DNA of 63,021 bases, filler included, from Stramenopiles sp. TOSAG23-6 (Eukaryota): the NCBI GenBank assembly GCA_900128565.1. It is 11 parts of 11 records of this genome, joined end to end, with 100 filler letters (N's around TTAATTAATTAA, not from the genome) between each part and the next. Parts side by side here need not be neighbours in the genome. Positions count along the whole stretch, not along the records: positions 27,171 to 33,834 come from LT636666.1; 10 more parts are not named here. One strand, given 5' to 3'. The notes below the pieces were generated by a model that was not told the origin of the DNA, searched no databases, and saw only the letters and a list, made by a program, of their open reading frames with translations. A program made the translations under genes and the position numbers. Position 1 is the stretch's first letter. Every line of letters starts with the position of its first letter. This document shows, piece after piece, positions 14,881 to 60,789 of this stretch.

Positions 14881-17800
14881 AACACTTCTTTGTAATGATG
14901 ATAGCAATTGCAAAGCAGGCGAAATTATAGGTACTGGGGCAATTTCACCAGTGAGTGAGCGTATTTTAGCAATATTTAATTTTTTGTCAATTCCCGTCGT
15001 TTCTTTGAGTTTTTGTATTGAATTTAGCGATGCATAGGTTGAAATATCTACAAGAGAAAACAACAAATTTAAAGTTGGATTCGTCGATACATCTATACTT
15101 TCGCAGTGTTCGTGATTCCGACACTCTAAACCCAATCGTCCTGCAATAAATGCTGATAAATGGGGATCAACTCGAAGTCGTGTAGCAATTGTTTCAATTA
15201 ATGTATTATTTGAAATACATATTGAAAAAAACAATATTTTATGCAATGCCCCTGTAATATGTTTTTGATATTTCTCATTCAAATTAACCCCATGTGGTGT
15301 TTTTTGTTGAGCTATATCGAAATCAAATGAAAATGTCATTTCTACTGGCAAAGAAGTATTCGAAAACAGTACAAATAAACCATCTACAATGCAGTTGGCT
15401 GCAAGTTGTGTGATATCACCTTCAGCAATCAAAGAATCATAGCTACAAAGATTAAGCAAAACTTTCATGAAGGAGCATGCAATATTTGGTGACATGATTG
15501 TAGTTTCTTTCTTTGCAATGTCTTCATTCTTTGCAGCCGTAAGGTTTAAACGTGTAAGGCGAAGTAATTCCCGAATTATACCTTGAATTCGTTTTAGATC
15601 TTGCTTCAAGGATAGTTCAGAAGAAGATAAAGTTGAATCTTTCATACATTCGTTGAAAGGTATTTTCTTTGCTTTATCTGTATAAACCGAATGAACTCTT
15701 GTACAGATATGCAAAATTTTCGAGAGTTTTTCAAATGATGCTTTCGAGACATCAACACAGAAAGGAAGACATGAAGGTAAAATTGCAGGCGCCCATGGCA
15801 AAGATAACTGTGCTGATAATGGTGTAGCCACTGTACCAACAAGTTCATGTAGTCCCTTGAGATAAGCAAGATCGATCACATGAAATGTTTTATCTCTTAA
15901 GTTATACCATCTTTCATCGCCATCATCATACACGACAAAATGCTGTCCAGATGAACTATTGAAATTTTCAATCACCCCTTCGTACCATTTGCGACCTGCC
16001 CAACGTAATGCTATACGAGATCCTACTAAAATAGATGGATTATTCTTCCATGCTTTGCCATCATCAAGTTTTTGTAAAAATATTTGGCCAGAGTCTTGTT
16101 CCAAAACCCAAGAATCCGTGTCAGTATCATCTTCATTTGGTTCACCTGAATTGTGAAAAAAAAATATAAGAAAAAACCCGTTAGGTACAAAATTTCGTGT
16201 GAAAAAAAACTAAATTAGAAATTCCTGATGAAAACGTACCACGAAGCCTTTGTAAAAGCCACGAAAGTTTTTCTTTGTCATCGTCAGAGCCAGTCATATG
16301 CGAACTTTCAATGTGTCGGGCAAATTTTGGTTCTCGTAGTAATTGATAAAGTCTTTGTTTGTCGCGTGCGTGAAATCCACGCAAGCGCAACCATCGTCCA
16401 TGTATTGTGAAAAAATATTTCAAAAAAAAATCGTTAGGTATGAAATTTCGTATGAATCTCCAGCACTTCTACAGTTTGAGAAGCCACCAGCTTACCAATT
16501 TCTTTCGCTGATATCGAGGGAGACGCTTTAATATCCTGTTCAATTAGAACTCGATAAAACCCAGGCGCTGGTATTTTTGCTTGCATTTTCAGTGTCACTG
16601 TATTTTGATATATAGGACCACTTTTAAGTCCGCTAATAAATATTTCTTTCCATTCACGAGTGTTTTCATTTGCTATATTTTCCTGACACTTTGTGGAGCT
16701 GTCATGAATTTTAGGGTATCCTAAGGATGGATTACCAGCATTTGAATGTTGCACGACACACAGCGATCCAACTATTTTCATCAAACGAGATATTGAACGA
16801 ATGACAGACTCACCTGATACATCATTCACTTTTGATTTTCTATTTGAAAGGTCTTGCTCGGAAATATTAGTTTTGAACATCCCAGGGTTTCGCCAGTATT
16901 GTACAGATAATGTGTTTGCAAAATAGCAGAATAAAAATCCTGAATTTGGGTCATAACAAACAGCATCAGGAGGTACATTTAAACTAAGTTGATTCGATTG
17001 GTCATTATCATTTTCTGGTGCGTTTAAATTTGAATGATCAAATTTGTCTCTATTTACTAACTGGATTTCAATTGAACGTTTACTAGAATTATTTGTGTTG
17101 ATTCTACTCGACTTTTTATGAGAATGTTTATCATTGTATTTTTCTTTGGGTAATAATGGTATTTTATTACTACTAAATATTGTTGAGACATTTCTTTCAG
17201 GTGAAATATTTGAAGAGTCTACAGTTGACAATGGATCAATGGCTGGATCTTCAACATTTGAGTGTGAAGCAGCTTCAGTAGCTTGCATGACACGAAATGT
17301 ATGTTCGGGAAATGGGTGATATGCCATGCGACATTCATAGCATGTCTGACATAAGTCATAGTCTAGACAAGTATTACATTTCCACCTGACACCTTCAATA
17401 GGTGTTTCACGGCAACCATCACAAGTGACATTTAAGTGGGTAGTCTCAAATTTAGCCGAAAGTGACGATGACTGCTCCAATCTGGATTCATTTAAAGGAT
17501 TCGAATCACCTACAACAGCTTTATCAGAAACTTTACTTAAGCTTAAAGCCGCAGCATTCGCAGCATTTCTAGCAGCAGCAGCAGCAGCAATACTAGAATT
17601 TCTATTAGTTGTACTTTGTGCTATAGTTGTTGCATCCACATCAAATACAGGTGATGACGAAACGAATTTTCGGGGATATGATAGACCGTCAATATGTTTC
17701 GCCATTTGTGCAGCTGTAGAAAAAATGTGTTTGTGTGGGCTGCGTTTAGAATTTTGTCGGACCTTTCTACTGTATAAATGCTCTTCGTCGTCTTCTTGAG

Positions 17801-20235: not shown

Positions 20236-20288
20236 ATGTATTGTAAAAAAAATTAAATTCGAAATTTGTTAGGTACAAAATGTCGTAC
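20236..20288 (-). mobile_element. 3' half of introner-like intron (AT)
   Basis: GTACCTAAC...TACAATAC-AT at the contig end. Confidence 0.75.
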
Positions 20289-20464: not shown

Positions 20465-23400
20465 GTTGGTATCAATAATTGAGTCTGACCCAAAATTATA
20501 TCTTTGTCTGAAATTGGTTCTCGAAGTGAACCACTTCGTTGAATCTCTTGCAGTATTTCATTATCACCATACAAGAACGCAAGTTGATTTACAGTATCAA
20601 TATCTCTTTGATTTTTACACTCAATGAGGGCTTGTCCAGAAGGATTTCGAGCATACAATGAAATTTTTAATTTATATGGCACAGAATTTTCACCATCATT
20701 TCGTGCTTCTGGAAACGGTTTTATCATTACACTTTCATTCCATTGGACAAAATGCTCCGGTATAGAGAATTCAATTACACGTATCCATAAAGGAAATCCA
20801 CATTCAACAATAGTCTCTTTGGCAACTGTTATTGGCAAGTTTTTAACCGAAATCCAATCACCGCGCGATTTAATTTTGTTATTTGCTTGATATAATGATT
20901 TTTCTTCTCGTACTATCGTAGTGTTCAACACATTCGCTGCACAGTGTGTAATGATACTACCTGGTAATATGACGTCATCTGCTTCAGAGTCTTTTGTTAC
21001 ACTAGTCACCAGAAGACCTTTATCATGAACGACGAGACCTAATAAGTTAAGACTAAACAAATCAGTTTCAAAGCGAACAATTTTTTTTGTTTCCTCGCTA
21101 ATAGAATCATTCGTTGTATTTGTTGTGGTCATTTTTTTACACTTTGAGCGTGCTGGTGCAGTACATCGAAATGTTTCGTCGTCACATAACGTTGCTACAG
21201 CATATACATTATTACTTATTTTGTTCTTTGCACAAATATGAGCTATTTGAAAATTAACACAAACCTGTTGCATGTCAAATATAGGTTCAATAGTCTTAAT
21301 ATCCTCTTTTACAGCAAAACTTTCTTTTGTTTCAACATTTTGTTGTTTACTCTTATGTGTTGGTTGTAATAAAGGATTCAACAAAGGTATGTTAAAAACA
21401 GTATGAAGTCTCATTCTATTTTCAGTAGCAATGAACAAAGAATTTTCAAGTATTAAAAGTTGTGCTGCTAAACGACACATAAATAAATTTTCCTTCAAGT
21501 GACGTAAAACTGTACATTCCAATACTTCTTTATACCAATTATCGTTATCCACAATTTCTTTTTTCTCCTCACGATTTCGATGATTTCGTTGTTTACTTTT
21601 TTTAGGCATTTCATTTTTTAATTTCCAAAATAGAAGACATTCGTCTTCAACTTTGATAGTATTGACATATTCTACATTAAACAATGACTCTTTTTCATTT
21701 ATTTCAGTGAATTTATCTACATTCCTGACTTCAGATGTAATGATTGATGATGATCCTCCCATTACGTGTAAATAGCCTATTTGTAGATCTGTGCGACATT
21801 TTTTTGTAGTTGTAGTAGTAATATTTCCACTCTGTGCGATGAAACTTTTATCTCGACTTATCTTTATCCAATTGTCATGTATATCTTTTTTATTAGGTAA
21901 TTTCCGTCTTTTTCCTTTCTCAGATTTCTTAGAATTGAATAATTTTTCTACGATTTCTTCAATATTGACATATGCCGACAAAGAAACTATACAACTACCC
22001 AACATGTATTTTGTAAAAATATTTCAAAAAAAAACTAAAAATTGTTAGGTACAAAATTTCGTACGAAAAAAAATAAATTCGAAATTCAAAAAAAAATAAA
22101 ACATACATTACATTATCCTGTTTTGGATCAAGTATATACAATTCAATATTTGCATTAGCTATAAAGTTTCTTACACAAATCTTTGCATCCATAGCACTCT
22201 CCTTACATTCATCGATAATCATCGACAAAGGTAACCCAAATACAATTTCACTCAATACAGAATTTAAATTGGTCGATTGTTGAGATTTATTAGGCTCATA
22301 TATTGGATATTTCCATTTGATTTCGTGTTGCGTGGTACTTTGTACATTTTGTTTTGCTTCGCGTTTATACCAATGAATGTTTTCAATGATTCTTTTACAA
22401 AATTTCATAGTTAAAGAATCCAAGTGCTTCATCTTATCACAGTCCATAGCAACACAAGCAATCACCTTATTAAAACACAATTTTTTATTGCAAGCTTTAA
22501 TAAAGCCAGTGCTAAATAAATGTGAAGCAAATGCACCACCAATATTCAACCATACATATAATAATGATATATTATTGGTCATATTACTTGTACTAGCATT
22601 ACATAATAATGGTACATTTTCATCATAGATAGATTGAAGACGATCCTTGGCAAAAACGAGTTGTTGTATATAAGACGAAATATAATTTATTCCCTTGTTG
22701 ATCAACTGTTTACGTTGGACATTAACATCATCAAATTCTCCCTGCAGTGAGAAAAATATACTACAATCGATATTCGTTAGGTATGATACAAAAATTGGAT
22801 TAGGTTCAAAACAAAAATAATTTGAAATGAATTATGGAAACATATATATTCCTGAATACAAGTACCAGCATCATTGTACAAATGTGGAAGGTCGCTGATA
22901 ATACACTCTTTGTTTACTCCATCTGTTGTTACTATTGCTTGCAACTTTCGTCTATAATTAAAATTAGTCTTACTTTCCTGCTCATCAGAGGTATCTAAAT
23001 ATATATAAGAATTCTCAGTATCATCAAGTGAATTTCTCTGAGCACCAACAATATCCATATCTATATCAAAACGCTGTTCGTGTGTTTCATTGGAATTGTT
23101 CCCTACATTACATCTTACACCAACTTCATCCACTCTAACATAATCTATCGATTTGCCATTCGTTGATTCGCCCACATTCGTCATCGGCATACATAAAGGC
23201 GAAATACAAAGATGTCGATCTAATTCTGGCGCAGTCCACGTGAATACACTACTTGTTAGAGGTGGCAATATATTGTGAAAAATATCTTTAATTCGACATT
23301 CGTTAGCTACACAATTTCATTAGAAAAAAAATAAATTTGAAATTCATGATGAAAACGTATCAAATAAAAACTCAAAAAAAAAATTTCATTAGAAAAAAAA

Positions 23401-25608
23401 TAAATTTGAAATTCATGATGAAAACGTATATATAAGACCTGTACTAAAATCAGTACCTTTCTGTCTGACAAGTAATGTATCTATAGTGCACTGGTTTCTC
23501 ACACGACATCGAATACTACTCAAATTCTCCAAAGGTCGAAGTATAACAAATATTATACCAGAATGTGAAACAATGTTGATATCAATATATTGAGTCTCAA
23601 AAGATAGATCACCACCACCACTGTTATTTTTACCACTCAATGTGGATATAATACTAGTTTCATTCATATGACGTCGAAGACCAAGTATAGTACTTCCTAA
23701 TTTAGTAACATTAAATCTACTTGACCAGGTCCAGTTTATATCGTTCGCGTGAGATTTATCTGTTACAAATCGAGTCTGCAAAAATCCAACATCTTTTGTG
23801 AAATCACTCCAATGCCATGATGCGAGGTCTCCTGCTTGCAATCGTATGATACTACCTTTTAGGATAGTACTGACATTACCATCTATATGACTTTGTCCAA
23901 ATTCCATTTCAAAGTTTGTAAAGTTTTTGATGCGTAATTGAGGGAAAAAATGGATCTCTCGGGATCGAAAGAAAATACCTGGAGCATCGCGTAGAAGAAC
24001 ACCAATTTGAAACTGACTTCGACAATCACCTTCCGCTTGAACTTCTAAAAGTTCTGGTAATCCAACTTTTTGAAGATCAAATTGTGTGGACCATTTACTT
24101 TCAAGTGACATGAATCTACGATTTGCACTCAAACGTCGAATCAAAGCAAATTGCGTTGTATATCGAATGGCAAGGAGCCAGTCGATTAGTTGTTTTTCAG
24201 TACTGAATTTTAGTAGAGCATTCTTTTGATGTATTGATTTCGTTGTACTAGAACATTCAATACTTAAAATGAATGACTGGGACATTTTTACAACTTTACT
24301 TTTAGTTGGAATGTATTTTGGAAAAATATTTCAAAAACAAAACTTAAATTTGTTAGGTACAAAATTTCGTACGAAAACAAATTGGAATTTGAAAAAAAAT
24401 AAAACATACATACACCGAGAAGGACACGACACAGAATTAGATGTAATTTCTGTGGTATTGTTTACTTGTGAGAATCCATGAGATCTCAGACGAGACACTT
24501 TAGTATCCACAGTCAATGAAATATTTCCAATACACTCATTTGAGCCATAAGGTTTTTGTTTTAAACCATGCAATATAGGTAATATAGCTTCAATACACTC
24601 ACCTGAATCATCAAAGACTTTTGAGTTTGGTGGTGTAGGTAATGAATCTATGATACCCATTTTATGCTCTTCTTTACAAGGAGTCATATTCAATTCACTT
24701 TGTTTTACATTTTTAGTTAATTTTGTAGAAATGTTTTGGTCGACACTAAAATATTGAAATAAAGGGACTTGACTACAAGCCCAAGAAATATTCCCTCTAC
24801 GCCCGCCCATGTATTTTGGAAAAATATTTCAAAAAAAATCTAAAACAATTGTCAGGAACAAAATTTCGTACGAAAAAAAAGAACGAATTTGAAAAAAAAT
24901 TAAACATACATACTAATCTTACCAAATACTTTTTGATATTTTTTACCGTCAACACTGATTTCAAATGAATCATCTAAATTGTATAAGCTTGGTAATCCAC
25001 TTACAGTATTACCAATAGTATTAATATCAAACATTTGCTCTATATCTCGTGTATATTTTGGTATTGTTGATGTATCTCGGATACAGATCGTCATGTACTG
25101 TAAAAAAATATAAGTTCCGTTTAATTCTTTTGTAAGGTAAAACGAATAGAATAAAAACTCAAAAACAAAATATTCTCTTAGGTACAAAATTTCGTACGAA
25201 AAAAATAAATTAAAAAAAATTCGAAAACGTACACGTGTCGTCCACCATCAATAATGGACTGATATTCACCAATAAGAGGCAGCTCTGTCCAGACTGGAGT
25301 AGATAGATAACTTTCCCCGTTTGAATAAACATCAGTCTTGTTTTGTGCCAACATGATCGGAACATTTCGTATTGATAAATCAATTGAGTTTACATCAATT
25401 ATAACATGACGACATGAAATATCAGTTCTATACGATTTTTCATCTATATCTTGTGGTATTTTTTCAGTTTCATACACAATTTTTGATGCTATCGAAGAGT
25501 TACCCCATATACCACAACCAGGTGTTACAATAAATTGCACAGAACTGTTTGGTTGAATCGTTGAAGGTGGTCCTTGATTGTTTAGCTTATCTTCATCTTT
25601 GAAAAGAA
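20465..25608 (-). CDS. VPS13: VPS13-family protein, partial, 7 exons
   Basis: SHR-BD/VAB-like motifs (QIGV....APGIF.RS.EIHFFPQLRIKNFT, WSSRF, RVRNQC...L.VRQKG...LPP..S.VFTW) plus PH-like and PDZ-like segments; exons join in frame. Confidence 0.75.
22004..22106 (-). mobile_element. Introner-like intron GT-AT
   Basis: Frame restored QDNVMLGSCIVSL. Confidence 0.85.
22742..22845 (-). mobile_element. Diverged introner-like intron AT-AG
   Basis: ATATGTTTCC...CATACCTAAC...CTCACTGC-AG; frame CIQEYGEFDD. Confidence 0.75.
23268..23429 (-). mobile_element. Introner-like intron AT-AT with duplicated 5' half
   Basis: ATACGTTTTCATCATG occurs twice; frame GLILPPLTSSVFTW. Confidence 0.8.
24311..24409 (-). 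mobile_element. Introner-like intron GT-AT
   Basis: Frame SRCIPTKSK. Confidence 0.85.
24809..24909 (-). mobile_element. Introner-like intron GT-AT
   Basis: Frame GKISMGGRRG. Confidence 0.85.
25093..25232 (-). mobile_element. Introner-like intron GT-AT, extended
   Basis: Frame DGGRHVTICIRD. Confidence 0.8.
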
Positions 25609-27070: not shown

Positions 27071-27485
27071 NNNNNNNNNNNNNNNNNNNNNNNNNNNNNN
27101 NNNNNNNNNNNNNNTTAATTAATTAANNNNNNNNNNNNNNNNNNNNNNNNNNNNNNNNNNNNNNNNNNNNTTTTATCTTTTTTCAATTCCGATTTTTTTT
27201 TTTAGTACGAAATTTTGTACCTAACCAACCTAAATAGAATTTGACATTTTTGTTCACAAAACATTGGCTCTTCCAATTTCTTCCTTTCCTAATATGTATA
27301 CTTGTTTTGTCAAGGACGATTTTCAAAAGCCTTATTTACACACAAGAGATTTCATACTTATAGGATTTCCTATAAGTATATTAAGTGTACTTTTTTTGAG
27401 TACTATAGGAACATATTTAATAAGTTCGATTATATAATTTTATTTTTTCAAAATAAACAAATGCTTTTTTTGCTTTTTTTGCTTT

Positions 27486-28502: not shown

Positions 28503-28615
28503 GTATGTTTTATTTTTTTTTTAACAAAAAAATCGAATTTATTTTTTTTTTCGTACGAAATTTTGTACCTAACATTTTTTTTTAGATTTTTTTGAACTAT
28601 TTTTCCAAAATACAT
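28503..28615 (+). mobile_element. Introner-like intron GT-AT
   Basis: Full family consensus. Confidence 0.8.
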
Positions 28616-29044
28616 GAAGGCGAAACACCAAAAAAAAAACCTATCACTCAATGGTCAAAAAAAAAGGTTCGCGGTTTCATTGGTTTTATTGAAGGTGGGG
28701 TATTTTTTATTTGTGAACACTTATCACTTCATTAATGTAACATTTTATGGTTTCAATTTTTTTTCTATTTTTTTTTCGTAGGGAATTTCGTACCTAACAA
28801 ATTTTACAAAAAAAAAATTCACACAGTACAACGTTTTAAAAAATATCAGGATGCATTTTCTCAAATTACCGGCAAGGCTTTAGTTAACATGTGGAGTGGG
28901 GACTTCGCTAAAAAGTGTGGAGGAAACACTGCGGATGCGACGGTAATCTACGATGCAGTTTCAAAGAAAAAAATGGAAGCAAAGAAGATGACAGCTGCTG
29001 CGAGACGAAAATCGGTGAAGACGCCTCCAGGAGCTCCGCCCTGA
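28616..29044 (+). CDS. SAM-like domain C-terminal exons (28616-28699, 28832-29044)
   Basis: Spliced product PITQWSKKKVRGFIGFIEGGRFKKYQDAFSQITGKALV; not in the ORF track. Confidence 0.6.
28700..28831 (+). mobile_element. Introner-like intron GT-AA
   Basis: GTATTTTT...CGTACCTAAC...CACAGTAC-AA; frame restored. Confidence 0.7.
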
Positions 29045-29731: not shown

Positions 29732-29963
29732 TTTAGGCTATCGAAATCTACTAATGTACCTTTTGCAAATAGCACAACTGTAGAGCTATTTTTTCTACCT
29801 TATAGGCTATAGTAGCTAGTTGGACTATGACATTGGCATGACAGACATAAATTTGCACTGACTCTTTAGAATGTTACAATTTGACACTTTTCACCTCGAC
29901 GACTATCTCTTCGACAAGCACTTTCGACAAAGAAACAGACTTATTACAATAGACTATTGAGGA

Positions 29964-30632: not shown

Positions 30633-30945
30633 GAAAGCTTTGAAAATAAATAATTTAAAAAAAAAAAAAAATTTAAATTTTGACTTCTAAATCTTGCGTT
30701 ATGGTGTTGTTAGGGTTCGGGTTATTAGATTAGGGTTAGGGTTAGAGGCCATCAAAATTGATTGATGCCTATTTTGTCATCATCACATGAATCTCATCAG
30801 ATCAGACATAAAAATGAAACACAGTTATTAATAATAATATTATTTTATATACTAATGTCAAAATGTTTCCATTCAAGTAAAATAGCAGCTTGTTAATGCT
30901 AATACAAAATCGCCAATATAGTATTTGTAGTTGAGTCAGTCAAAT

Positions 30946-32288
30946 ATGCATCGCTTCAAAATATTTGCGACGACAACCGTGTTTGGATTTGGTTGTGGAT
31001 TTGTGTTCTTTAACGGCAAAAGCTTAATAAGAACAAAAAAGCTAGAAGCAGCTTCTTCTTCAAGTATTATAACTAGTGATGATCTAGTGCTTTACTGTGA
31101 TCGTAGTATGGTTGCTGCCAATAATCCATGCGAAGATTTCTCTGATATACGTGTTTCAAAAGCAGAGGATTGTCATATGGATCAGCTTGGAAATCGTGTT
31201 TGCAGCAAGACCACTACTACAGCTAAAAATGATGACCCCAGCACTTATGATAATGACACAGTATTGCTTGCTGGTGTATTCGATGGCCATGGAGGATCCA
31301 GGGCAAGTGAATTTGTCAAAACAAATCTTTTTAATAGTATAGAAAAACAAATAGTTAAAGACCACCAAAAAACACGAAAAAAACACAAAAAACACCTCTC
31401 ACTTGGTGAGGTTCTAGGTTTTACAATGCGAAATGTTGATGAAGCTTTCAAAGCTTCCGTATTGGAAGAATTCCTGGACGGTAATTGGAAATTAGCGAAT
31501 GTGGGAACTTGTGCAATTATTTCTGCAATTACCAAAAGTAATATCTATATAGCTAATTGTGGTGACTGTAGAGCGGTACTTGCAATACGAAAAAAAGACT
31601 CTCTAGTACCCATTCAATTGTCGAATGATCACAACGCGAGGGAAGTGAGTGAGCAGAAGCTACTGCAAAGTGCGCACTCGGACGAGCATAACGTCGTCGT
31701 GCAGTTTGGAGAAAATCCATACTATGTCAAAGGTGTTTTGCAGTGCACTCGAAGTATCGGAGATTATTATTTGAAAGATTCGACATTCAACAAACATCCG
31801 ATGCCAAATATTTTTGTAGTCCCAGAACCTTATCACCCTCCATATGTAACTTCAAATCCTGAAGTTTCAACTATACCTCGCGATAATAACCAGGCATTTT
31901 TAGTCCTTGCTTCAGATGGCTTATACGACGAACTTTCAAATTCGGAGGTTATAAAGATTGTTGAAAACTGGTTGCATTTGCCAGTGGAAGAAAAATCTAA
32001 AATTTCTAGCAGCCAAATGCTGATTGATGCTGCACTAAAAAATGCTTCAAAAGAAACTGAAGTCCCTTTAGAAATTATTAAGTCCATGCCATGTATGTTT
32101 TATTTTATTTTTTTGTATGAATTTATTTTTTATAAAAATTTTGTACTTAACAAATTTTAGTTTTTTTTTTTGAAATATTTTTCCAAAATACATGTGGTCA
32201 TCTACGCAGAGAACTTCACGATGACATTACTGTAATTGTAATACATTTTGAAAATTTCTCTAAAGATTGGAAAAAGGAAATTCGTTAG
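30946..32288 (+). CDS. PP2C protein phosphatase (exons 30946-32092, 32194-32288)
   Basis: GVFDGHGG, ANCGDCRA, LASDGLYD; spliced exon gives RRELHDDITVIVI. Confidence 0.93.
32093..32193 (+). mobile_element. Introner-like intron GT-AT
   Basis: Removal joins SMPCGHLRRELHDDITV; CATGT repeated at both ends. Confidence 0.9.
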
Positions 32289-32552
32289 GTACAAAATTTT
32301 GTACGCAAAAAAAAATAAATTTGAAATGAATGATGAAAACAAAGAGTAACGCAAGATGAATCTCAGATCTAGATCAGCAGTAAACATTATTATATAATCA
32401 TAAAGTGTGTTGTTTTCTTCATTAATTTCAAATTTAAACATTTTTTCATACAAAAATGTGTACCTAAAACAAAAATATATATTTCTTATTTAGTTCAATT
32501 TATTAATACGATATAATCCTATTATTCACCTATCAGTAAAATCACTTGAAAT

Positions 32553-33834
32553 TTACTTATCAGCAAAACCAAGTTTATCAGTCGCTTGCATGCAGATGAC
32601 CATTTCTAAACAGTATTTCAATTCTTCTCTTTCAGTATACAATGGCAGCTCAACACTATTGAAGCAGGTATGTGCACGAGGATACATACACATTTCCCGT
32701 CGGACGGGCATTATCTTGAAAGGTTTGATAATTCCACCATCTGATTGCAGAAATTGAAAGCCTTGGATGGGCACACGAGCAGTGCCTGTTACAAATTGTA
32801 ATAATCGGGCTCTTTGTTCATGCGAAAATTCCTCAACACATTCCCAAAACCAACGGATAACTTGATGATTGGGATTATAGATACTACAATACACTGTATT
32901 TGATTTCCAGTCTCTAACATCAATCTCCGGAATTCCGCTAATGATCAATTCTAATTCTTGGTAATCAAAAACAGACACAATATGAAGAGGTAAAACGGAA
33001 TAAAACCCCTTCAAAACTTCTGTCAGTTGAGTCTTCACCGCATCATGTACAATATATTTCACATTAAGAGTAATAAATTCATCTCTATTGTCAGCGGTTA
33101 CTTCTTCTTCAAAACCATTTCGTTTTAATGGTATGCATTTGACACTTCCAAACGCATCTTTCGAAGTAATTGAAAAGTCAAGCATCAGATCTTCCACATC
33201 TTCAGGATCCATATCACGGATTTCACAAAGAGAGCGATACATATCCTTATCACAAAATTCTACATCAGATAAAGACAAAGGTAATGCAAGTAAATGCTTG
33301 TACAATGGACGACTTAAATGAGCTGGCATATTTTGTTCCCATAGCAACACTCTGGCTAGGACTGCACCAAAAAATCGAAAAAATTCGAGATGAGCAGGTT
33401 GTACTTCACCTGAGTGTGAACTTAATCTATAAGATGCATCGTCTACCTCAGAATGTACAAAAAGTCCATAATCAGGACGAAATAATTCATGTGCCATTAA
33501 TTCAATCCAATCCTTTGTTACACCACCTTGATCTAGACCTTCTTCACCATCGAACATATATTTTGGAAAAATATTTCAAAAAAAAAAAAAGTTTTTGTTA
33601 GGTACAAAATTTTTATAAAAACCAAAAAAAAAAAAAAAATGGATTTTTTTTTTAAAAAAAAAAAAAATCGATTTTTTTGTTAAAAAAAAAATAAAACATA
33701 CATGATTTTCCACTTCGAGCGCATCTTCACAGAATCATCTTTAAATAAATTATATGAATCAGAGGAGGACTGTAAAACATTAGACCTTTTACATGGAAAA
33801 TCTACTCGAAGTTCCTCTGCTCCACTCTCAACAC
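32553..33834 (-). CDS. HECT E3 ubiquitin ligase, C-terminal part
   Basis: F.GEEGLD.GGV.KDW, LLQFVTGT, PRAHTCFN. Confidence 0.95.
33556..33701 (-). mobile_element. Introner-like intron GT-AT
   Basis: Frame KWKIMFDGEEG. Confidence 0.9.
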
Positions 33835-33934
33835 NNNNNNNNNNNNNNNNNNNNNNNNNNNNNNNNNNNNNNNNNNNNTTAATTAATTAANNNNNNNNNN
33901 NNNNNNNNNNNNNNNNNNNNNNNNNNNNNNNNNN

Positions 33935-33994
33935 ACGAAATTTTGTACCTAACAAATTTTAGTTTTTTTTTTTGAAATATTTTTCCAAATACAT
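33935..33994 (+). mobile_element. 3' half of introner-like intron (AT)
   Basis: Family 3' consensus at the contig start. Confidence 0.75.
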
Positions 33995-38675: not shown

Positions 38676-39905
38676 CTTTGCTCATTGTATTGAAGTAGGT
38701 TTCAAATGCCGCTGATCCATCAAAGAACATCTGGAAGTAATCTTGATGATGGCGCATAAACTGAAGGGCATATATTTTGGAAAAATATTTCAAAAAAAAA
38801 AAATGTTAGGTACAGACTTTCATNNNNNNNNNNNNNNNNNNNNNNNNNNNNNNNNNNNNNNNNNNNNNNNNNNNNNNNNNNNNNNNNNNNNNNNNNNNNN
38901 NNNNNNNNNNNNNNNNNNNNNNNNNNNNNNNNNNNNNNNNNNNNNNNNNNNNNNNNNNNNNNNNNNNNNNNNNNNNNNTAAAGCTATTCCTGAGACTTTA
39001 TTATTTTCAGTATTTTTAGTATTTTTAGTATTTTCAGTATTTTCAGTATTTTCAGTATGTTTAGTACTTATTGTAGAAGTTTCAGTACACTCAGAAGGTC
39101 CTGAAGGCCCTCTAAATATTGAACCGATGAATGTTTCGTCAACGATTGGTTTCCCAGCATTATCTGGGATTTTCATGACTGCTATTCTAGATACAAGATT
39201 ACTTGGATTACCACCCTGACGTTTTTTTACATTCCATTTTGCTGCTTTGGCACGTCTTTTCAGTACCATGGCGGTTGAAAAAAAACCTCGAGTAAAAATT
39301 TCAGGAGCTATACTTTGTCGTAATGCAGTGGATATTCGCTGCTCAGTATGTTTGAGAAAAATGACGAGCGGTTCATGACTCTGGAATGAGGAATCATTCC
39401 TTTGAAATAAACCATCAGTACCTTTAGTATTACTCTTTTGTTGATCTACTTCTAAAAATGTTGGATCTACTGTCATGAGATGCCCTGGCTTTGCTAATTC
39501 TGGGACTATGAATTCTATTAATGTTTGAGTATTAGGAACTTGAATAAAAAGCGAATCTCCTGGCGAAGTTCCTAACGGGCAGACAACCGAAAATGGTTTC
39601 CTTGACGAAACCAATTGTTGTTGTGTTGTCCGCTTTTGCACAGAAGTAGACGCCAACTGAAGAGCAACTTCAATGGGAGTATCATCATTAATTCGTTTCG
39701 ATGACAGGGATTTTTGGTCCGCTTCCATCGCATCAAAATATCGAGTAACTGCGATTGACATATTATAGTTTGATTTTCGAAGCAATATCAAGCAATCTTC
39801 CATAGGCAGACATAGAGTAATGGACATTTCCAGTATATCTGCCTCTGTATATAAGCTACGGAGTATTTCAGTTTCCTCTGTAGTTACGGAGGAACCAGAT
39901 CCCAT
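38676..39905 (-). CDS. Myristoylated UBA-like/OTU-like protein, partial
   Basis: MGSGSS start and a UBA-like segment; the exon after the intron end at 38770 reads ALQFMRHHQDYFQMFF...FETYFNTMSK (OTU-like). Confidence 0.5.
38770..38823 (-). mobile_element. 3' half of introner-like intron (AT)
   Basis: GTACCTAAC...CCAAAATAT-AT. Confidence 0.7.
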
Positions 39906-47424: not shown

Positions 47425-47523
47425 ATGTATTTTGGAAAAATATTTCAAAAAAAAAATTTAATTTTTGTTAGGTACAAAATGTCGTACGAAAAAAAATTCA
47501 TACAAAAAAAAAATAAAACATAC
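47425..47523 (-). mobile_element. Introner-like intron GT-AT
   Basis: Full consensus, ending at the contig end. Confidence 0.8.
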
Positions 47524-49828
47524 ATGCACCAAATGATTCTTCGTATCTTTGAGTATGTTTATAATTAGGGTTGGGGTTTCGATTATTTTTAGACGTTTTA
47601 GATATTTTAGTATTATTTTTAGTATATCGAAATGTTGAACGAGAGTGAGTCCGATTATGAGTTCGTCGCGACCGACTTGAAGAATGCTCTGAAGATTTAC
47701 TGTCTATTTTAGATTTTGTATTCTTTGGATTAAAAATAAATAAAGGTACTGGGTGGGAAGGACGTTAATATTGTAGAAAAATATGTTATATTTTTGAAAA
47801 ACATCGTTAGATATAAAATTTGTTTTTATGAAAATGTACGATGAAAAAAAAAATGAAATAAGTGAATACAAATTCAAAAATATTTTTGAAATATTTTTTT
47901 CATAGTAAAATTTGTACCTAACAAAAAAAAACAAAAAAAACAAAAAAATGAAATGTAAGTGAATACCGTACAAGTCAAAACAGATACAATCACATCCAAC
48001 ACCAGATCGTTTCATGCGCGCATGTGTTAAATCACTCAAGTCTGTGTCAACACGAAATGTTCCATTTGAAGCTGTGAGTAGTTGAATGGTCATACCACTA
48101 CTACCTAAATTTCGATCAACATAGGAAACATCAAAAATATTGAGTGTGAGATTTACAGCTTCTAAAATATTACCACATGTATTGTGAAAAAAAACAAGAA
48201 TTTTACAAAAAAAAAAAAATCGTTAGGTACGAAATGTACTATGAAAAAAGAAAACTATAAAGTAATACATTCATGATGAAAACGTGCATTCACCCGTTGA
48301 CAGAGAAACACCATTTGATTTAAGCCTGTGGTGAAACGCATGTATTTTGGAAAAATATTTCAAAACAAAAAATTCATTAGGTACAAAATTTCGTACGAAA
48401 AAAAAAACGAATTTGAAAAAAAATAAAACATACATGGAAACGGCGTCTAAATTTAGGTAATAAAGAAGTCCAATCACTGACTGCATCATTACTACATTTA
48501 ATCTCTTCATAGAAATCGTGAAATATTTTTTCGTGATTATTCTTTTTTTGCTTTTGTTTTTGTTTAGAATTAATTCGGTTTTTACGAAATTGATGCTTCC
48601 GACGGGATTTTTGATTTAGTTTATTATGAGTTCTATTACTATTAAGATGTATGGTACGACGCCGTCCAAGAGTGGTGGGATTAGTATTTGTGTTTTGATG
48701 AATTTCACCTCGGGCGAATAAGACTACACTAAATTGATGTCGGACTCCCATGCCTGTGCACTTCTTTAAAAAACATCTTAGAAAAGAGTTAAACATAATT
48801 TCCCAAATCATATCACCACTAGGTGTTAGAACAAACATTTCCAAACTGACTTGGATTAACAGAACTAAATGACACGATCTAGTACGACAGATATATTTTG
48901 TAGAGTTTTTAGTGACACCTGAGAAAACGCAAACCTGTTCTGGTCCTAGTCTATTCTCAGCGAGCTTCCCTAATTCAACACTAGTAGCTAAACCACGAAC
49001 GCGACCACTATCTAAATTTAATTGTGTTAATGCTGAATTATGACCACGAACAAGTTGTTCTACCTTAATCCCAACACCTGCAACATCGGCATACTGAGTT
49101 GAGAATAAAGTTCTTCCTTTCAAAGCTTCACGGACTGTTGGTGAAAAAGTATGTCACACAAAAAAAAATCGTTAGTTTGTCATAAAAAAAAAGAAAAATA
49201 AATTTGAAATTCATCAACGCCACGCACCTGCCCACATCTCAGCCAAATCAATTGTAGACCCAAATCCAAAAGATATCTCTACAAAATCAACACTTGTTAA
49301 TGTATGAGTTGTTTGTCGGAGCCAAACTAGCTGTCGAGCTTGGACATCAAATGCTTCGGCGACTCGTTTGGCAAGACTAATTTTCATGTTTCCACGAACG
49401 CGATCTTTTATAGCGACGACCAATGTCAAACGTCGCTTTTCATCATTCGGATGCTCCAGTTCGACTAATGTACCGGATCTAAGACTAGGAAATATCTCGG
49501 GGTTGATTACAAGTTCTTGAGAAGAAAAATCACTATCATGAACATAAAGAGAGCATTGAACAGGTTTTAGTGGTGTAAGTTCAGCTGGAGGTGGTGACAA
49601 CCAAGCTTTCTTTTTTAGACGTCGCATTCCAAGGCGCCATTTATCTTTTGCATCGCTTGAATCGAGGCGACTTATGACACCCCGGGAAACACTCCGACCG
49701 TCAGAACGATTACGGCGTTGACCACGTAATTGAAGTTGGAGTCTTGTATATTCATTCTGCTTCTGGAGATGAGCAAGCCTAGATCGCCTAGTCTTGCGTA
49801 CGCTCGGATGGAAGTGCGACTGACTCAT
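47524..49828 (-). CDS. DEPDC5: GATOR1 subunit DEPDC5/Iml1, N-terminal part
   Basis: Spliced product contains ELVINPEIFP, RTRSCHLVLLIQVSLEM, GNILEAVNLTLNIF...VDRN and CFDLRPSHPVPLF. Confidence 0.9.
47766..47971 (-). mobile_element. Introner-like intron GT-TA containing an inverted family core
   Basis: Removal gives CICFDLRPSHPVPLF, collinear with the DEPDC5 motif. Confidence 0.8.
48177..48287 (-). mobile_element. Introner-like intron GC-AT
   Basis: GCACGTTTTCATCATG...CACAATAC-AT; frame STGECGNILEAVN. Confidence 0.85.
48340..48433 (-). mobile_element. Introner-like intron GT-AT
   Basis: Frame RRRFHAFHHRL. Confidence 0.88.
49135..49227 (-). mobile_element. Diverged family intron GT-AG
   Basis: GTGCGT...ACTAAC...CACCAAC-AG; frame EMWAVREAL. 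Confidence 0.85.
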
Positions 49829-50107: not shown

Positions 50108-52296
50108 ATGCCCCGTAAAAAGAAGGGATCGAAAGTCAAAAAGAATGTTAGTTTCGAAGCTCCAATTGTAGAAAATGTCGAAGAGATACCATTCATTCGT
50201 TCTAATAGTAGTCGGCAAAATAAAAACGTGCCACCCGAGCAATGCCCAGGTATGTCAGATGCAGAGTTTGAGCAAGTTCGCGAAGAATGGATTCAGAACT
50301 ATGCTGCATACCTTGATGAAGTGAAGGATTCAGACCCCGAAACGTATAAACGTTTAATAAAAGACCTTCAAGCAAGTGTACAATCTAGGAATAGCGGCGA
50401 GAATGGTTTTTCACCTAAAGTCCCTGGCATGGAAGGAAAAGTAATGGGAAAAGGTGGCATAGTTTCTGATAAAGAACCCGAGGGAATAAAAATAGAGCCT
50501 GAGATAGGGTTTGTCATCAAAACTTTTGATCTTAAAACAGGAAAGAAAGTTTTTATTAATGTAGTTCACTCGCATTTGTTGAAGAAACCGGCAATGAAGA
50601 AAAAAATTGGTGAAGATGGAAAAGAAATTGAAGGATTGAATATTCCTTTAAGCTTAGGTGTTCCTCGACTAGCAAAGGACAAAAAAGGTGCATCTTGTAT
50701 TGTATATGATATGGTTGTGAATAGTGTAGTAATTGATGAAGCAACAAGTGACAAAACGGGGAACTATCGCCATTTTGTTTGCAATATGGCATTGACTTAT
50801 GTTCAACAAAAGTTCCGATGTGAAGTAGATTTGAAATATAAATTACCGCGCACAAAATATATATATGGGGAATCAGATAGTAAATTAGATAAACAAGAGA
50901 AGACGAAACCACGTTCTCAATATATAAGAAAAGACTTAGCACCAAAAATTGAAGAAGTGGGCCGATCAGAGAATCCCAAGAATAATTCGAATTTATCCAA
51001 ATCAAAAGTTGGTGGTAGCCCTAACCCTAACCCGAAAAAGAAAACCGGAGTAAATGTAAAAGAAAACTCTGGAAGCAACAGAGTGACTAAACTTTCTTAT
51101 GCTGCATACAAAATACGATGTCGTTATGAGAATGATCCTCCAGAAGGACGAGAATTGACAGATTATCAAAAGGTCAATGGGTGTGGAGCTCATGTACGAT
51201 TTCATCATGAATTTCAAATTGTTTTTTCATACGAAAGTTTGTACCTAAGATTTTTTTTTGAGATGTTTTGTTTTCATCATGAATTTCAAATTCATTCTTA
51301 CTTTTCCCATCAAATCTTGATGTTTTTCATACCTAACGAATTTCAAACTTGACATATTTTTTCACAATACTTGATAATACACTCCTTGGATTACCCCATC
51401 AATTATTGATATCATTTGATCTATCAAATTTTCGAGTTGTTGATATCATAACATTGTACAATGAATATCAAAAATCATCAATACCATTAAAGGAAAGCCA
51501 AAAATCATCAAAACCATTAAAGGAAAGTGTAAAGAAAAGTATACATATCGAAATGTCAAATAATTTTATCGCTGTTAGTATAGTTGGTTATCGAAAACAG
51601 GAAATATTTTTGCCATGCCCAGTTTTGAAAGGAAACGTTGATGAAATTGCGACATTTAATGGACAACAAAAAACATTAGATATTCTTCTTCAAGTTGACC
51701 CATCAGGCGGTTCTTGTCGAGGTCCCGACCCAGGATCTCGAGCATGGTTACTGGCAAGAGCATTGGAACAACCGAATTCTGCCGGGAAGCCGATAATCAC
51801 ACAGGATACAAAAAGTTTTATTTCTCCTGATAATGATACAATTGCTGAAGTTTCAGATGAAGTCTGGGCGGAGGATGCTTTTCATGCTCAGGATATGTTA
51901 TCTCAGCATTATTTATCCCAAAAACAAGAAAATAAAACAAAGCGTTCGAAAGACAAGGCAGAAGAACGACGAAAAGCAGAAGACGACCCTAATTTAAATA
52001 TTGAATATATTGATGACGTCAATGAATGGGCAAAGAAACAAAATGTAGATATTAAAGCTCCTGTTGGAACTGATGGTTCTATTCAAATTAAGGGAATGAA
52101 TGTTTCTATAGATGCCGAGAAAGTAACCAAAGCAAAACTACAAATTGATAGAAATCGAAAGCTAGAGGAAGAAATTATGAGAAAAAAAGCTGAATCGAAA
52201 CTTGCCGCAATTCCATGCCCGGTCCCACGGTCTCACGACCCCCATAGTAAAGTTCTTTCAGCAACACACGAAATGATGTTTGATTTACTAGATTAA
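50108..52296 (+). CDS. PIH1-domain protein (exons 50108-51193, 51373-52296)
   Basis: IEPEIGFVIKT...KVFINV, IPLSLG.PR...DKKG..C.VYD. Confidence 0.88.
51194..51372 (+). mobile_element. Introner-like intron GT-TT, tandem double core
   Basis: Frame CGAHDNTLLGLP. Confidence 0.8.
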
Positions 52297-52434: not shown

Positions 52435-54006
52435 CTACATTACAAAAGCTCCACTAGGAGTCACATCACCTGAAACACTTGTCAGAGTAACTCTTTTTTT
52501 CTTCCTCTTCTTTTCGTTTTGTTCTTTTTCAGAAACATGCGAATCCCTCGAAAGTTGTTTCTGTGATTGTAGGACACTTCCCACCGTTTCATCATTCGCA
52601 CCCCCTTGATTTTCAACAACTTCTTCACCTTCACTTGCTAAAAAACCATCATCATCTTCATCACCATCGTCTTCTTCTTCAGCGGCCGATCCCATTGAGT
52701 CATCTAAATCATCTAAATCTTCTACCTCATCATTTTTACTATCAGACTTGTCACCTTTAGGTACATAATTATTAATTGTACTGGATACTTTTTCACTATT
52801 TCCAATCGAATCATCATTTGGATTCTCCCAACCAAATGAAGTACGATCAACGGAAGAAACATCTCCAACACGAGTCAACAAAACGCGTTTTTTACTCTTT
52901 TTTAGAGGAATGCCATCATTAGTAGTATTCTCACTTGGCTCACCATCAACCGTCTTCCGTTTCCTACTTTGATTTTGATTTCCCCCACTATTTATTTCCA
53001 AATCTGAATCAGTATTTTTACTATCATTTTGTTGCTGAATTTCATCATTTGCTTTCTTGTCATTTTCATTATTTATTGACAAACTAATTTTAGTTTTTTC
53101 AGGTTTATTCTTTTTTACAATTTTCTGGAATATAACGGGTAGTTTACGTCGCATTACTTCAGGGACATCAACGCCTGTAAGTACTTCACCTAACTCACCT
53201 TCCGTAAATGTTAGAAGAGTAATATACCCATCTTGTGAGCTGATTGCAATACAGTCATCACCAGCACCATTAGCACACCAGGTAATATCAGTAATCTGAG
53301 CATAATGTACATTACCAACAAGTGCTATTGGATCAGCTTGTTGAGTATCGTATACTAAAATATTTGACAAAGTTGCAACAGCAAATACTACGCGGTATGG
53401 TAAAGCAATCAGTGGAGGACTCGACGGCACTCCGTTTTCAGGTTCTCGTAGTTTAAATGTTATGTCAAAAAAAAATAAAAAAAAATTCGTTAGGTACGAA
53501 ATTTCGTAGGAAACAAAATAAATTTGAAATTAAAATGACAAAAACGTACATAATCGAGGATGACAACGAACTGCAATTGAGGGCTGATCCATACCAGGAG
53601 TTGGTAAGTGTAATGCTGGTCTAGAAAAAACGCCTCTTAAAAAGATAAATGTTGTTGGTACTGCGGATTCTCCTGCATTCGACATAAAACATCCTGTTGG
53701 TGTGAATAAGAATGATCCATCTGGTGAAGTACTCAACCGACGAAAAAAAGTAGGAACAGTTTCGTCCATGAACATTGCATGTTTTTTCTGAGGCGCTCTA
53801 CGATTTTTCCCTTTCTTTTTATTCATCTCGTCGGTTTCGTCATCATTTGAATCTTTTCCTTCATTTTTTCCTTCACTTTTTCCTTCATTATCAGAATGAA
53901 CTGTTTCAGAACCTACAGGTTTGTGACACAGTGATCTATGTTTTACAAGTGCTTTCACAACGCATGTAAATCGCTTGCCCTTGGATGCTGCAAAACGCTT
54001 CATTCC
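52435..54006 (-). CDS. CHAF1B: Chromatin assembly factor 1 subunit B, C-terminal part
   Basis: TFFRRLSTSPDGSFL.TPTG, LPYRVVFAVAT, NVHYAQITDITW, SSQDGY. Confidence 0.92.
53457..53549 (-). mobile_element. Introner-like intron GT-AT
   Basis: Frame VRCHPRLFKLR. Confidence 0.9.
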
Positions 54007-54058
54007 ATGTATTTTGGAAAAATATTTCAAAAAAAAATCGTTAGGTACAAAATTTCGT
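54007..54058 (-). mobile_element. 3' half of introner-like intron (AT)
   Basis: Family consensus at the contig end. Confidence 0.75.
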
Positions 54059-60398: not shown

Positions 60399-60724
60399 TT
60401 ATTCAATAGGTAAAATATCAGGAATTTGATTCACATGAGGCAAAGCCATATTATAGCATTTTATCAACTCTTGGCGGGTCAAAGGTCGAGTCGATCCGTT
60501 TTTCTTCATTGTACATGAATTGTAAAAAAAGTATTTCAAAAAAAAAATTGTTACGTACAAAATTTCGTACAAAAAAAAAAGGTTAAATTTGAAATTGAAA
60601 TGAAAACGTACACTCTTTCGATATCGACAGAGGGCCAATACTTTCACGAATTAAGCGCAATACTTTCAAATCAGCACGATTACACAATCGTCGAACTTGC
60701 CTATTTTTACCTTGATTTATTGAA
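60399..60724 (-). CDS. RsuA/RluB-family pseudouridine synthase, last two exons
   Basis: Spliced product SINQGKNRQVRRLC...LKVLRLIRESIG...RPLTRQE. Confidence 0.8.
60515..60611 (-). mobile_element. Introner-like intron GT-AT
   Basis: Frame SKECTMKKNG. Confidence 0.85.
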
Positions 60725-60789
60725 ATGTATTTTGGAAAAATATTTCAAAAACAAAAAAAATCGTTAGGTACAAAATTTCGTACGAAAAA
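60725..60789 (-). mobile_element. 3' half of introner-like intron (AT)
   Basis: Family consensus at the contig end. Confidence 0.75.

What the first reader, a model, noticed from the sequence alone, without database searches (positions are those of the whole stretch)
32088..32198. Introns have MITE architecture: GTAT...ATAC inverted ends and a 2-bp target duplication that supplies the acceptor
Seen: the 5' end GTAT(G)TTTT and the 3' end AAAATAC are inverted repeats. The 2 exonic nt before the donor equal the last 2 intron nt in 14 of 24 copies (13 AT/AT, plus AG/AG at 49135-49227), and the repeat is sometimes longer (CATGT here). Known: Introners of Micromonas and Aureococcus are DNA transposons that co-opt a splice site from the target duplication. 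Inference: this is an AT-targeting element whose duplicated target becomes the acceptor, so splicing is scarless.
Basis: partly seen in the sequence, partly recalled or inferred. Interest (0 to 1): 0.85.

Follow-up and report, generated by a model that had tools for sequence, protein, structure and literature searches.

The report
Repeat-derived introns that end in AT
A roughly 100-base repeated element interrupts many genes of this marine protist and seems to be spliced out as an intron that ends in AT instead of the usual AG, which standard gene finders miss.

Summary
The window is eukaryotic: about 6.7-kb contigs joined by N linkers, with stramenopile-like proteins. It carries 32 non-redundant copies of one ~100-nt element. 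Nine "A" copies read AT|GTATGTTTT...CGTACGAAATTTTGTACCTAAC...CCAAAATAC-AT|G and are 85% identical on average.

- **Precise removal.** Removing GT...AT joins long ORFs in 13 of 14 non-AG introns. It also restores PP2C, IML1 and CAF1B/HIR1 domain continuity.
- **No usable AG.** Twelve of the 14 lack any in-frame internal AG.
- **Strand bias.** All 22 copies whose strand could be called lie in sense orientation.
- **RNA evidence.** Two metatranscriptome contigs from two studies start exactly after ...CACAAAACAT at 27265. The junction recreates a conserved transporter motif. This shows RNA-level splicing with AT as the last two intron bases and rules out the AT...AC register for that copy.
- **Canonical relatives.** Family members with canonical ends carry AG where the others carry AT.

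My reading is an introner-like family that makes GT-AT introns, a new variant of a known kind.

The MITE and target-duplication part is only partly supported. The inverted ends are 4-10 nt and occur only in subfamily A. AT/AT could be a duplication or a site preference. Some copies have the 3' AT without a 5' AT. I found no transposase and no empty site.

The parts
32093..32193 (+). Focal intron (subfamily A, 101 nt, GT..AT) in a PP2C phosphatase gene
   Evidence: 387 open codons upstream and 30 downstream after removal; a homolog HMM scores 333.2 bits for this removal, 317.7 for the internal GT-AG and 298.9 unspliced. DNA contig X3 record 14 runs from the exon into the intron as far as 32129.
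32090..32094 (+). CATGT, repeated at 32191-32195, so the cut could be drawn in several registers
22004..22106 (-). Subfamily A intron, 103 nt, AT|GT..AT|G
   Evidence: 241 and 538 open codons either side.
24311..24409 (-). Subfamily A intron, 99 nt, in a VPS13-like gene
   Evidence: 139 and 298 open codons. VPS13_VAB domain downstream.
24809..24909 (-). Subfamily A intron, 101 nt
   Evidence: 112 and 158 open codons.
28503..28615 (+). Subfamily A intron, 113 nt, in an LRR gene
   Evidence: 163 and 39 open codons. LRR domains upstream.
33556..33701 (-). Subfamily A intron, 146 nt, ends ..ATATAT, just before the HECT domain
   Evidence: 43 and 333 open codons, no AG inside. HECT domain.
47425..47523 (-). 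Subfamily A intron at a contig end; the 3' flank is linker N
48340..48433 (-). Subfamily A intron, 94 nt, in an IML1 gene
   Evidence: 240 and 22 open codons, no AG inside. IML1 profile position 177 falls on the last residue of the upstream exon.
48177..48287 (-). Subfamily B intron, 111 nt, GC..AT, in the IML1 gene
   Evidence: the IML1 profile resumes at position 208 on the first residue of the downstream exon.
53457..53549 (-). Subfamily B intron, 93 nt, in a CAF1B/HIR1 propeller gene
   Evidence: 169 and 339 open codons, no AG inside; profile 215-301 before the intron and 310-383 after it.
57222..57321 (+). Subfamily A intron, 100 nt
57322..57326 (+). 5-nt micro-exon (GGCAT) between two elements
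   Evidence: only removal of both introns separately gives a 596-aa ORF. The other three options stop at aa 284-299.
57327..57423 (+). Subfamily B intron, 97 nt
60515..60611 (-). Subfamily B copy with GT before the donor and ..CAATTCAT at the 3' end
   Evidence: The flanking ORFs are short (44 and 37 codons).
51194..51372 (+). Nested or tandem B-type intron in a PIH1 gene; the 3' end is unresolved (GT..TT at 51372, or GT..AT 3 or 6 nt further on)
   Evidence: 366 and 307 open codons.
27171..27264 (+). 3' part of a B-type intron (5' end lies off the contig), with RNA-supported 3' junction after ..CACAAAACAT
   Evidence: RNA contigs X10 record 1 and X7 record 24 begin at 27265; the downstream exon 27267-27434 is the conserved C-terminus of SPX-CitMHS transporters.
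16400..16495 (-). Intron with family 3' end ..CACAATACAT; the donor is unresolved
   Evidence: with donor GTAAGC at 16495 only acceptors after AC or TG are in frame. AT needs another in-frame GT donor.
20236..20288 (-). 3' part of a copy at a contig end, ..ACAATACAT|G
38770..38823 (-). 3' part of a copy beside an N gap, ..AAAATATAT|G
54007..54058 (-). 3' part of a copy at a contig end
54159..54234 (+). 3' part of a copy before the cullin exon, ..CACAATACGT
60725..60789 (-). 3' part of a copy at a contig end
33935..33994 (+). 3' part of a copy at a contig start
4934..5052 (+). Canonical GT-AG intron with the family 5' end and core, in an MFS_2 gene (duplicate at 11731-11849)
16146..16239 (-). 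Canonical GT-AG family member. It ends ..CACAATTCAG|G in the same register as ..CACAATACAT|G
28737..28826 (+). Probable canonical GT-AG family member
   Evidence: The flanking ORFs are short.
49135..49227 (-).
   Evidence: 208 and 251 open codons.
32245..32340 (-). Decayed copy without a GTAYG donor. It lies antisense over the last codons and stop of the PP2C gene
   Evidence: (E=4.6e-8).

Best explanation
An introner-like element family of about 95-115 nt has colonised the genes of this marine stramenopile-like eukaryote. I infer that the spliceosome removes it from pre-mRNA as a GT...AT intron.

Each copy carries these parts:
- a yeast-like 5' splice site, GTAYGT;
- a conserved core, CGTACGAAATTTTGTACCTAAC, that contains a CTAAC branch-site motif;
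- a T run;
- a 3' box, TTTTTYCAMAATACAT.

The second cut falls right after the final AT, 33-46 nt from the branch-like A. That is the same position where the canonical family members have AG. The removed piece equals the inserted DNA, or the insert plus one copy of a 2-nt duplication, so the reading frame is restored exactly.

Shown: the repeat family, frame and domain restoration, sense-strand bias, and one RNA junction. Inferred: catalysis by the major spliceosome, use of that branch site, and mobility. For the mode of spread I lean to a non-autonomous DNA element that inserts at AT|G sites, at about 50%.
For: **Repeat family**
- 32 non-redundant copies in 63 kb.
- The 8 aligned A copies average 85% pairwise identity; composition alone predicts 39%.
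- 11 of 21 contig ends lie inside a copy.
- In the DNA metagenome X3, summed depth is 25,562-41,105 in element bins and 4-9 on unique sequence, with 5,768 contigs laid.

**Precise removal**
- 13 of 14 non-AG introns join open frames on both sides, although their lengths fall in all three mod-3 classes. The 14th abuts a linker.
- 6 of the 14 have no internal AG. Another 6 have only out-of-frame AGs.
- PP2C HMM scores: 333.2 bits for the 101-nt removal, 317.7 for the internal AG, 305.1 for the database model, 298.9 unspliced.
- The IML1 and CAF1B/HIR1 Pfam profiles continue across three introns.
- The 5-nt micro-exon is needed for a 596-aa ORF.

**RNA level and strand**
- 22 of 32 copies could be assigned a strand from flanking ORFs. 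All 22 are sense and none antisense (p=2.4e-7).

**Register of the cut**
- RNA contigs from two studies start at 27265, directly after ..ACAT.
- The X10 loose end plus the window exon recreates the motif ..ALAIS.AMA.P.SSFPN that is conserved in homologs P0121, P0126 and P0132.
- Family members 16146-16239 (..CAATTCAG|G) and 60515-60611 (..CAATTCAT|G) differ only in the last intron base.
- GTAYGT is invariant at the 5' end.
Against: - Only one junction has RNA support. Its 5' exon lies off the contig, so the cut could sit 1-3 nt further right if the upstream exon ends in T, TG or TGG.
- No RNA contig bridges the focal intron.
- For 16400-16495 the strong donor GTAAGC is in frame only with an acceptor after AC or TG, not AT.
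- 51194-51372 would end in TT in the family register.
- Mobility is not shown directly: no empty site, no presence/absence variant, no autonomous partner.
- No copies were found in JGI metagenome contigs.
- Selection alone would also produce the sense bias.
- The summed depth is not a copy number.
Confidence: 0.8

Rival explanations
1. The same segments are AT...AC introns: the cut falls two bases to the left, at |ATGTATG...AATAC|. They would be removed by a U12-type or an AT-AC-tolerant U2-type spliceosome.
For: For every AT/AT-flanked copy this register gives the identical mRNA. Intron 16400-16495 with donor GTAAGC is in frame only with a cut right after ..ATAC or after TG. Intron 51194-51372 reads cleanly as AT..AC. 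That an A-first, C-last pair is tolerated by spliceosomes is recalled knowledge, not from a call.
Against: At 27264/27265 the RNA reads ..GCCA|TGGCT. An AC acceptor would leave ..ATTGGCT in the mRNA and break the conserved AMA.P motif. GTAYGT sits two bases inside such an intron. Canonical family members place AG in the +2 register. Three copies end ..ATAT-AT. The 5' end is not RTATCC, and the CTAAC motif lies 33-46 nt from the 3' end. That distance is too far for U12-type introns, a limit I recall rather than tested.
Confidence: 0.12
2. The element spreads by reverse splicing and reverse transcription, as proposed for fungal introner-like elements, or by another mechanism without target duplication. 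It would not be a MITE. The upstream AT would then be a site preference (AT|G), and the inserted DNA would be exactly the intron GT...AT.
For: All 22 callable copies are sense. Subfamily B has no inverted ends. Copies exist with a 3' AT but without a 5' AT: 60515-60611, and 27171-27264 as inferred from RNA. An AT/AT match across all introns cannot prove a duplication (PMC9860276 methods passage).
Against: All 9 A copies have AT on both sides and ATGTAT/ATACAT ends, as a 2-bp-duplicating DNA element would. A decayed copy lies antisense over the end of the PP2C gene. Passages read in PMC9860276 say most non-fungal introners show DNA-transposon signs.
Confidence: 0.35
3. These are ordinary old introns whose similarity reflects very strict splicing signals in this lineage. 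There is no mobile element.
For: Canonical GT-AG introns share the 5' end and the CTAAC core. Every intron found in the window looks alike.
Against: The 85% identity covers segments that are not splice signals. Contigs break inside copies. Summed depth on the element is extreme. Decayed copies lie outside ORFs. Two copies sit 5 nt apart.
Confidence: 0.07
4. The elements are cut out of the DNA, like the internal eliminated sequences of ciliates, and are not spliced from RNA.
For: The excision is precise and flanked by short repeats.
Against: The 22:0 sense bias would not be expected for DNA excision. The copies carry spliceosomal 5' and branch motifs. The joined form was seen in RNA contigs only, among the joints shown. 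Only 15 of 121 joints were listed.
Confidence: 0.02

Closest known systems
Introner elements of Micromonas pusilla and Aureococcus
   Same: Short non-coding repeats present in many genes. They are spliced out without changing the mRNA. In M. pusilla IE1 the donor is carried by the element and the acceptor is taken from a 3-nt target duplication (review PMC11282704, passages and section 6; PMC9860276 passages).
   Different: Those use GT/GC-AG termini and have clear inverted ends and duplications. Here the acceptor is AT, the inverted ends are weak, and the duplication cannot be shown.
Non-canonical MITE-derived introns of the tunicate Fritillaria borealis
   Same: Many transposon-derived introns with 3' ends AC or AT. 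An exonic TAC before the intron is linked to formation of the 3' site. They are removed by an adapted spliceosome (as summarised in PMC11282704; I did not read the original paper).
   Different: There the 5' end is mostly AG and the termini are diverse. Here the 5' site (GTAYGT) and branch motif are canonical and only the last base departs from the rule.
Introner elements and non-canonical introns of Amoebophrya
   Same: Repeated non-canonical introns with 3-5 nt direct repeats across the junctions and inverted repeats at the ends (PMC7789003 passages).
   Different: Amoebophrya shows no preferred terminal dinucleotides and has 8-20 nt inverted repeats. Here there is one dominant pattern, GT-AT, and almost no terminal pairing.
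U12-type and AT-AC introns
   Same: The A copies can formally be written AT...AC. GT-AT is listed among rare U12 subtypes (recalled, not from a call).
   Different: The 5' box and branch box do not match, and the branch motif is 33-46 nt from the 3' end. The RNA junction excludes the AC register in one copy.

Membership tests
Introner (repeat family that creates spliceosomal introns) | Many similar intron sequences at unrelated positions in unrelated genes | tested here: met
   Copies lie in PP2C, VPS13-like, LRR, HECT, IML1, PIH1, CAF1B/HIR1, cullin, transporter and GPCR-like genes.
Introner (repeat family that creates spliceosomal introns) | Removed from RNA so that the coding sequence is restored | tested here: met
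   ORF joining in 13 of 14 non-AG introns. Domain continuity. One RNA junction seen in two runs. For the other copies this is inferred.
Introner (repeat family that creates spliceosomal introns) | Recent mobility: presence/absence between strains or species-specific positions | not testable with these tools
   No whole genome is held. JGI metagenome contigs hold no copy.
MITE (miniature inverted-repeat transposable element) | Terminal inverted repeats | tested here: inconclusive
   GTAT(G)TTTT / AAAATAC, or 6 bp if the flanking AT is included, in subfamily A only. There is no covariation and the consensus fold is -3.4 kcal/mol. Subfamily B has none.
MITE (miniature inverted-repeat transposable element) | Target site duplication | tested here: inconclusive
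   12 of 14 non-AG introns are AT/AT. The match is the same across all introns, so it could equally be a site preference. 60515-60611 is GT/AT, and 27171-27264 is inferred to be CA/AT.
MITE (miniature inverted-repeat transposable element) | An autonomous partner with the same ends that encodes a transposase | tested here: not met
   No transposase domain in the 33 ORF pieces scanned against Pfam. This covers the window only; the genome could not be searched.
U12-type intron | 5' box RTATCCTT and branch box TCCTTAAC close to the 3' end (features recalled from memory) | tested here: not met
   The 5' end is GTAYGTTTT. The branch-like motif is GTACCTAAC, 33-46 nt from the 3' end. No snRNA or other Rfam hit in the window.

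The most novel reading that the evidence does not exclude
In this lineage GT-AT is the main intron class, with thousands of copies seeded by one introner family. Its major spliceosome has changed so that a T is accepted, or preferred, as the last intron base next to a long conserved 3' box. If so, published gene sets for such assemblies miss or truncate a large share of genes, and genes read as decayed may simply be interrupted by these introns.
Probability: 0.55. Interest if true: 0.85.

Novelty: new variant of a known kind. Interest (0 to 1): 0.78.

Why it matters
Introners are the best current explanation for bursts of intron gain. A family that keeps a textbook 5' site and branch site but ends in AT would be a natural experiment on how the spliceosome picks the 3' splice site.

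It also has a practical cost. The database model of the PP2C gene (P0001) forces a GT-AG intron and drops nine conserved residues. About 14 of the 18 complete introns in this window are invisible to standard gene finders.

The label on the nearest database protein points to the marine stramenopile (MAST) group. I read passages of three papers on MAST single-cell or metagenome assemblies (PMC5778133, PMC8163842, PMC12614181). They report low gene counts for some MAST-3 assemblies. None mentions non-canonical splicing in the main text; their supplements were not seen. Functional conclusions drawn from such gene sets may need rechecking.

Tried and rejected
- **Whole genome:** none is held for this window.
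- **Read laying over several contigs:** I then laid one contig. No RNA contig bridges the focal intron, and the displayed joints were dominated by cross-mapping between copies.
- **Upstream exon of the 27171 intron:** a 13-nt motif from the RNA loose end has no match in the window.
- **JGI metagenome contigs:** 0 matches to a full-element pattern. The 3 matches to the 19-nt core are unrelated sequences with 38-44% GC.
- **Earlier notes of this scan:** nothing by place or by sequence.
- **Rfam:** no family reached its gathering score in the window.
- **Consensus RNA fold:** weak, and no compensatory changes.
- **Internal GT-AG reading:** rejected for 12 of 14 introns. For the focal intron it is rejected by homolog score.
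- **Frame analysis to fix the register:** it cannot separate GT..AT from AT..AC where both flanks are AT.
- **Coordinates:** searches used coordinates one base off for five copies. One search repeats the internal-AG count with corrected coordinates.
- **Literature:** searches for 'introner' together with MAST terms listed 15 of 49 papers, none of which holds 'introner'. A search for 'GT-AT' introns in protists found nothing similar among the 15 of 65 papers listed.

Full report
**What the window is**

The window is eukaryotic DNA of about 33% GC. It is not one molecule. Contigs of about 6.7 kb are joined by N44-TTAATTAATTAA-N44 linkers. The first two contigs are identical. One contig carries a perfect 1.5-kb inverted duplication of its end.

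ORFs encode ordinary eukaryotic proteins: PP2C, VHS/GAT, PIH1, PDI, MFS_2, VPS13-like, HECT, IML1, CAF1B/HIR1, cullin, GST and LRR.

The PP2C exon is 99% identical to a database protein whose source label begins 'GSMAST'. The next hits are stramenopile proteins at 30-38% identity. I take this only as a hint to the organism group.

**The observation**

The focal intron reads ..CCAT|GTATGTTTT...CCAAAATACAT|GTGG, with CATGT on both sides. It belongs to a repeat family.
- nhmmer found 36 hits at E<0.01, which is 32 non-redundant copies.
- Subfamily A has 9 copies: AT|GTATGTTTTATTTTTTTT..TTTTCGTACGAAATTTTGTACCTAAC..TTTTGAAATATTTTTCCAAAATACAT|G. The 8 aligned copies average 85% pairwise identity over 28 pairs.
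- Subfamily B starts GTACGTTTTCATCATGAATTTCAAATTT, shares the same core, and ends TTTTTTCACAATACAT.
- Four family members end in a canonical AG.

The element is very abundant.
- 11 of 21 contig ends lie inside a copy.
- In an independent DNA metagenome (X3), summed depth is 25,562-41,105 in element bins and 4-9 on unique sequence. 5,768 contigs were laid. The tool warns that this is not a copy number.

**They must be removed, and not at an AG**

One search lists 14 non-AG introns with both ends in the window.
- Removing GT...AT joins open frames on both sides in 13 of them, for example 241+538, 387+30, 366+307 and 169+339 codons. The 14th abuts a linker.
- Their lengths fall in all three classes mod 3, so they are not in-frame inserts.
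- Six have no AG inside. Six more have only out-of-frame AGs. Two, including the focal one, have an in-frame internal AG.

For the focal gene I built an HMM from 39 homologs.

| Model of the PP2C gene | Score (bits) |
|---|---|
| 101-nt removal | 333.2 |
| Internal GT-AG | 317.7 |
| Database model P0001 | 305.1 |
| Unspliced | 298.9 |

P0001 skips nine residues that homologs keep.

Pfam profiles run on across three further introns.
- IML1: profile position 177 falls on the last residue of one exon, and position 208 on the first residue of the exon after next.
- CAF1B/HIR1: positions 215-301 lie before the intron and 310-383 after it.

Two elements lie 5 nt apart at 57222-57423. Only removing both separately, which leaves a 5-nt micro-exon, gives a 596-aa ORF.

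**RNA or DNA, and which register**

Of 32 curated copies, 22 could be assigned a strand from flanking ORFs. All 22 are in sense orientation (p=2.4e-7). That fits splicing of a transcript.

Where both flanks are AT, the mRNA cannot tell GT..AT from AT..AC. One copy breaks the tie.
- RNA contigs from two metatranscriptome studies, X10 record 1 and X7 record 24, start matching at exactly 27265, right after ..CACAAAACAT. Before that point they carry 173 and 146 unlike letters.
- The exon that follows, 27267-27434, is a genuine coding exon. It has 79 homologs at E<=0.001. The best is 65% identical and aligns to the last 54 residues of an 840-aa SPX-CitMHS/Na_sulph_symp transporter.
- The end of the X10 loose sequence, translated in the frame of that exon, gives ..ALAISSA. 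Then comes a Met codon split at the junction (A|TG), then ALPISSFPN from the window. Homologs read ..ALAISAAMAFPISSFPN.

So the transcript is on the + strand, the element is in sense, and the last two intron bases are AT. An AC acceptor would leave two extra bases in the mRNA and is excluded here. The upstream exon ends ..CA, so in this copy the AT is not a copy of the 5' flank.

Caveat: the 5' exon lies off the contig. A cut 1-3 nt further right cannot be excluded if that exon ends in T, TG or TGG.

Three further points favour the same register.
- GTAYGT is invariant.
- ..CAATTCAG|G (16146-16239) and ..CAATTCAT|G (60515-60611) differ only in the last intron base.
- Three copies end ..ATAT-AT.

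Two introns do not fit cleanly. 16400-16495 is in frame with its strong donor GTAAGC only for a cut after AC or TG. 51194-51372 would end in TT.

**How it most likely works**

The element brings a strong 5' site and a CTAAC branch motif 33-46 nt from the 3' end. It also brings a T run and a 12-nt 3' box that is conserved in 24 curated 3' ends. The second step uses the AT after that box. In five of the nine A copies it passes over an AG that lies closer to the branch motif. Catalysis by the major spliceosome is inferred, not shown.

**How it spreads is open**

The A copies are all AT/AT with ATGTAT/ATACAT ends, as a DNA element with a 2-bp duplication would be. Against that:
- the AT match is the same across all introns, which a published criterion calls ambiguous (PMC9860276, passage read);
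- subfamily B lacks inverted ends;
- some copies lack the 5' AT;
- the fold has no covariation;
- no transposase domain is present in the window.

Reverse splicing, or insertion without duplication at AT|G, remains a live rival.

**Comparison with what is known**

- Micromonas and Aureococcus introners use canonical ends.
- Fritillaria has AG-AC and AG-AT introns of MITE origin (from a review).
- Amoebophrya has repeated introns with no preferred termini.

A single family with canonical 5' and branch signals and a uniform AT acceptor matches none of these. I found no report of it.
- Three MAST genome papers hold no mention of non-canonical splicing in their main text. Their supplements were not seen.
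- Among the 15 papers listed of 49, none holds both 'introner' and a MAST term.

**Verdict**

It is not established for the MITE architecture or for the duplication supplying the acceptor. I rate it a new variant of a known kind.

Noticed in passing
window 6698-6797, 13495-13594, 20289-20388 and eight more linkers: The window is a chain of separate contigs of about 6.7 kb, slowly decreasing in length, joined by N44-TTAATTAATTAA-N44 linkers. Distances across linkers have no biological meaning.
   Followed up: yes
window 1-6697 and 6798-13494: Two consecutive contigs look identical: same ORF coordinates offset by 6797 and 100% identity over the stretch compared, apart from a single N at 11805. 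This is probably a duplicated assembly product.
   Followed up: partly
window 20389-21808 and 25651-27070: The two ends of one contig are perfect reverse complements of each other over about 1.4 kb of real sequence. This looks like an amplification or assembly chimera rather than biology.
   Followed up: no
window 40685-47324: This contig differs from its neighbours: 39-44% GC, strong positive GC skew, no copy of the element, and one very long ORF (over 1,300 aa, continuing after a gap) with a Peptidase_S74 (endosialidase chaperone) domain. It may be of foreign origin (virus, bacterium or transfer).
   Followed up: no
window 32245-32340 (-) and 32245-32292 (+): The last codons and the stop of the PP2C gene, after the conserved ..VIVIHF, lie on the antisense strand of a decayed element copy. 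The gene's tail may have been recruited from the repeat.
   Followed up: partly
window 57322-57326: A 5-nt micro-exon between two element-derived introns is required for an open 596-aa frame.
   Followed up: yes
window 25078-25232 (-): In the VPS13-like gene two donor/acceptor pairs are both in frame: GT two bases upstream with ..ACAG, or the family GT with ..ACAGTACAT. This could be alternative use of AG and AT at one intron.
   Followed up: partly
window 36633-36852 and 57837-58133: Coding tandem repeats: a 15-nt unit (Asn/Gln/Met-rich) in the VHS/GAT protein, and a Lys/Glu/Asp-rich 9-21-nt periodic stretch in the GPCR-like gene.
   Followed up: no
window 61180-61309: A 65-nt tandem duplication contains AACCCTAACCCTAA, a telomere-like motif, on a short contig rich in other local repeats (61372-61592, 61673-61877).
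   Followed up: no
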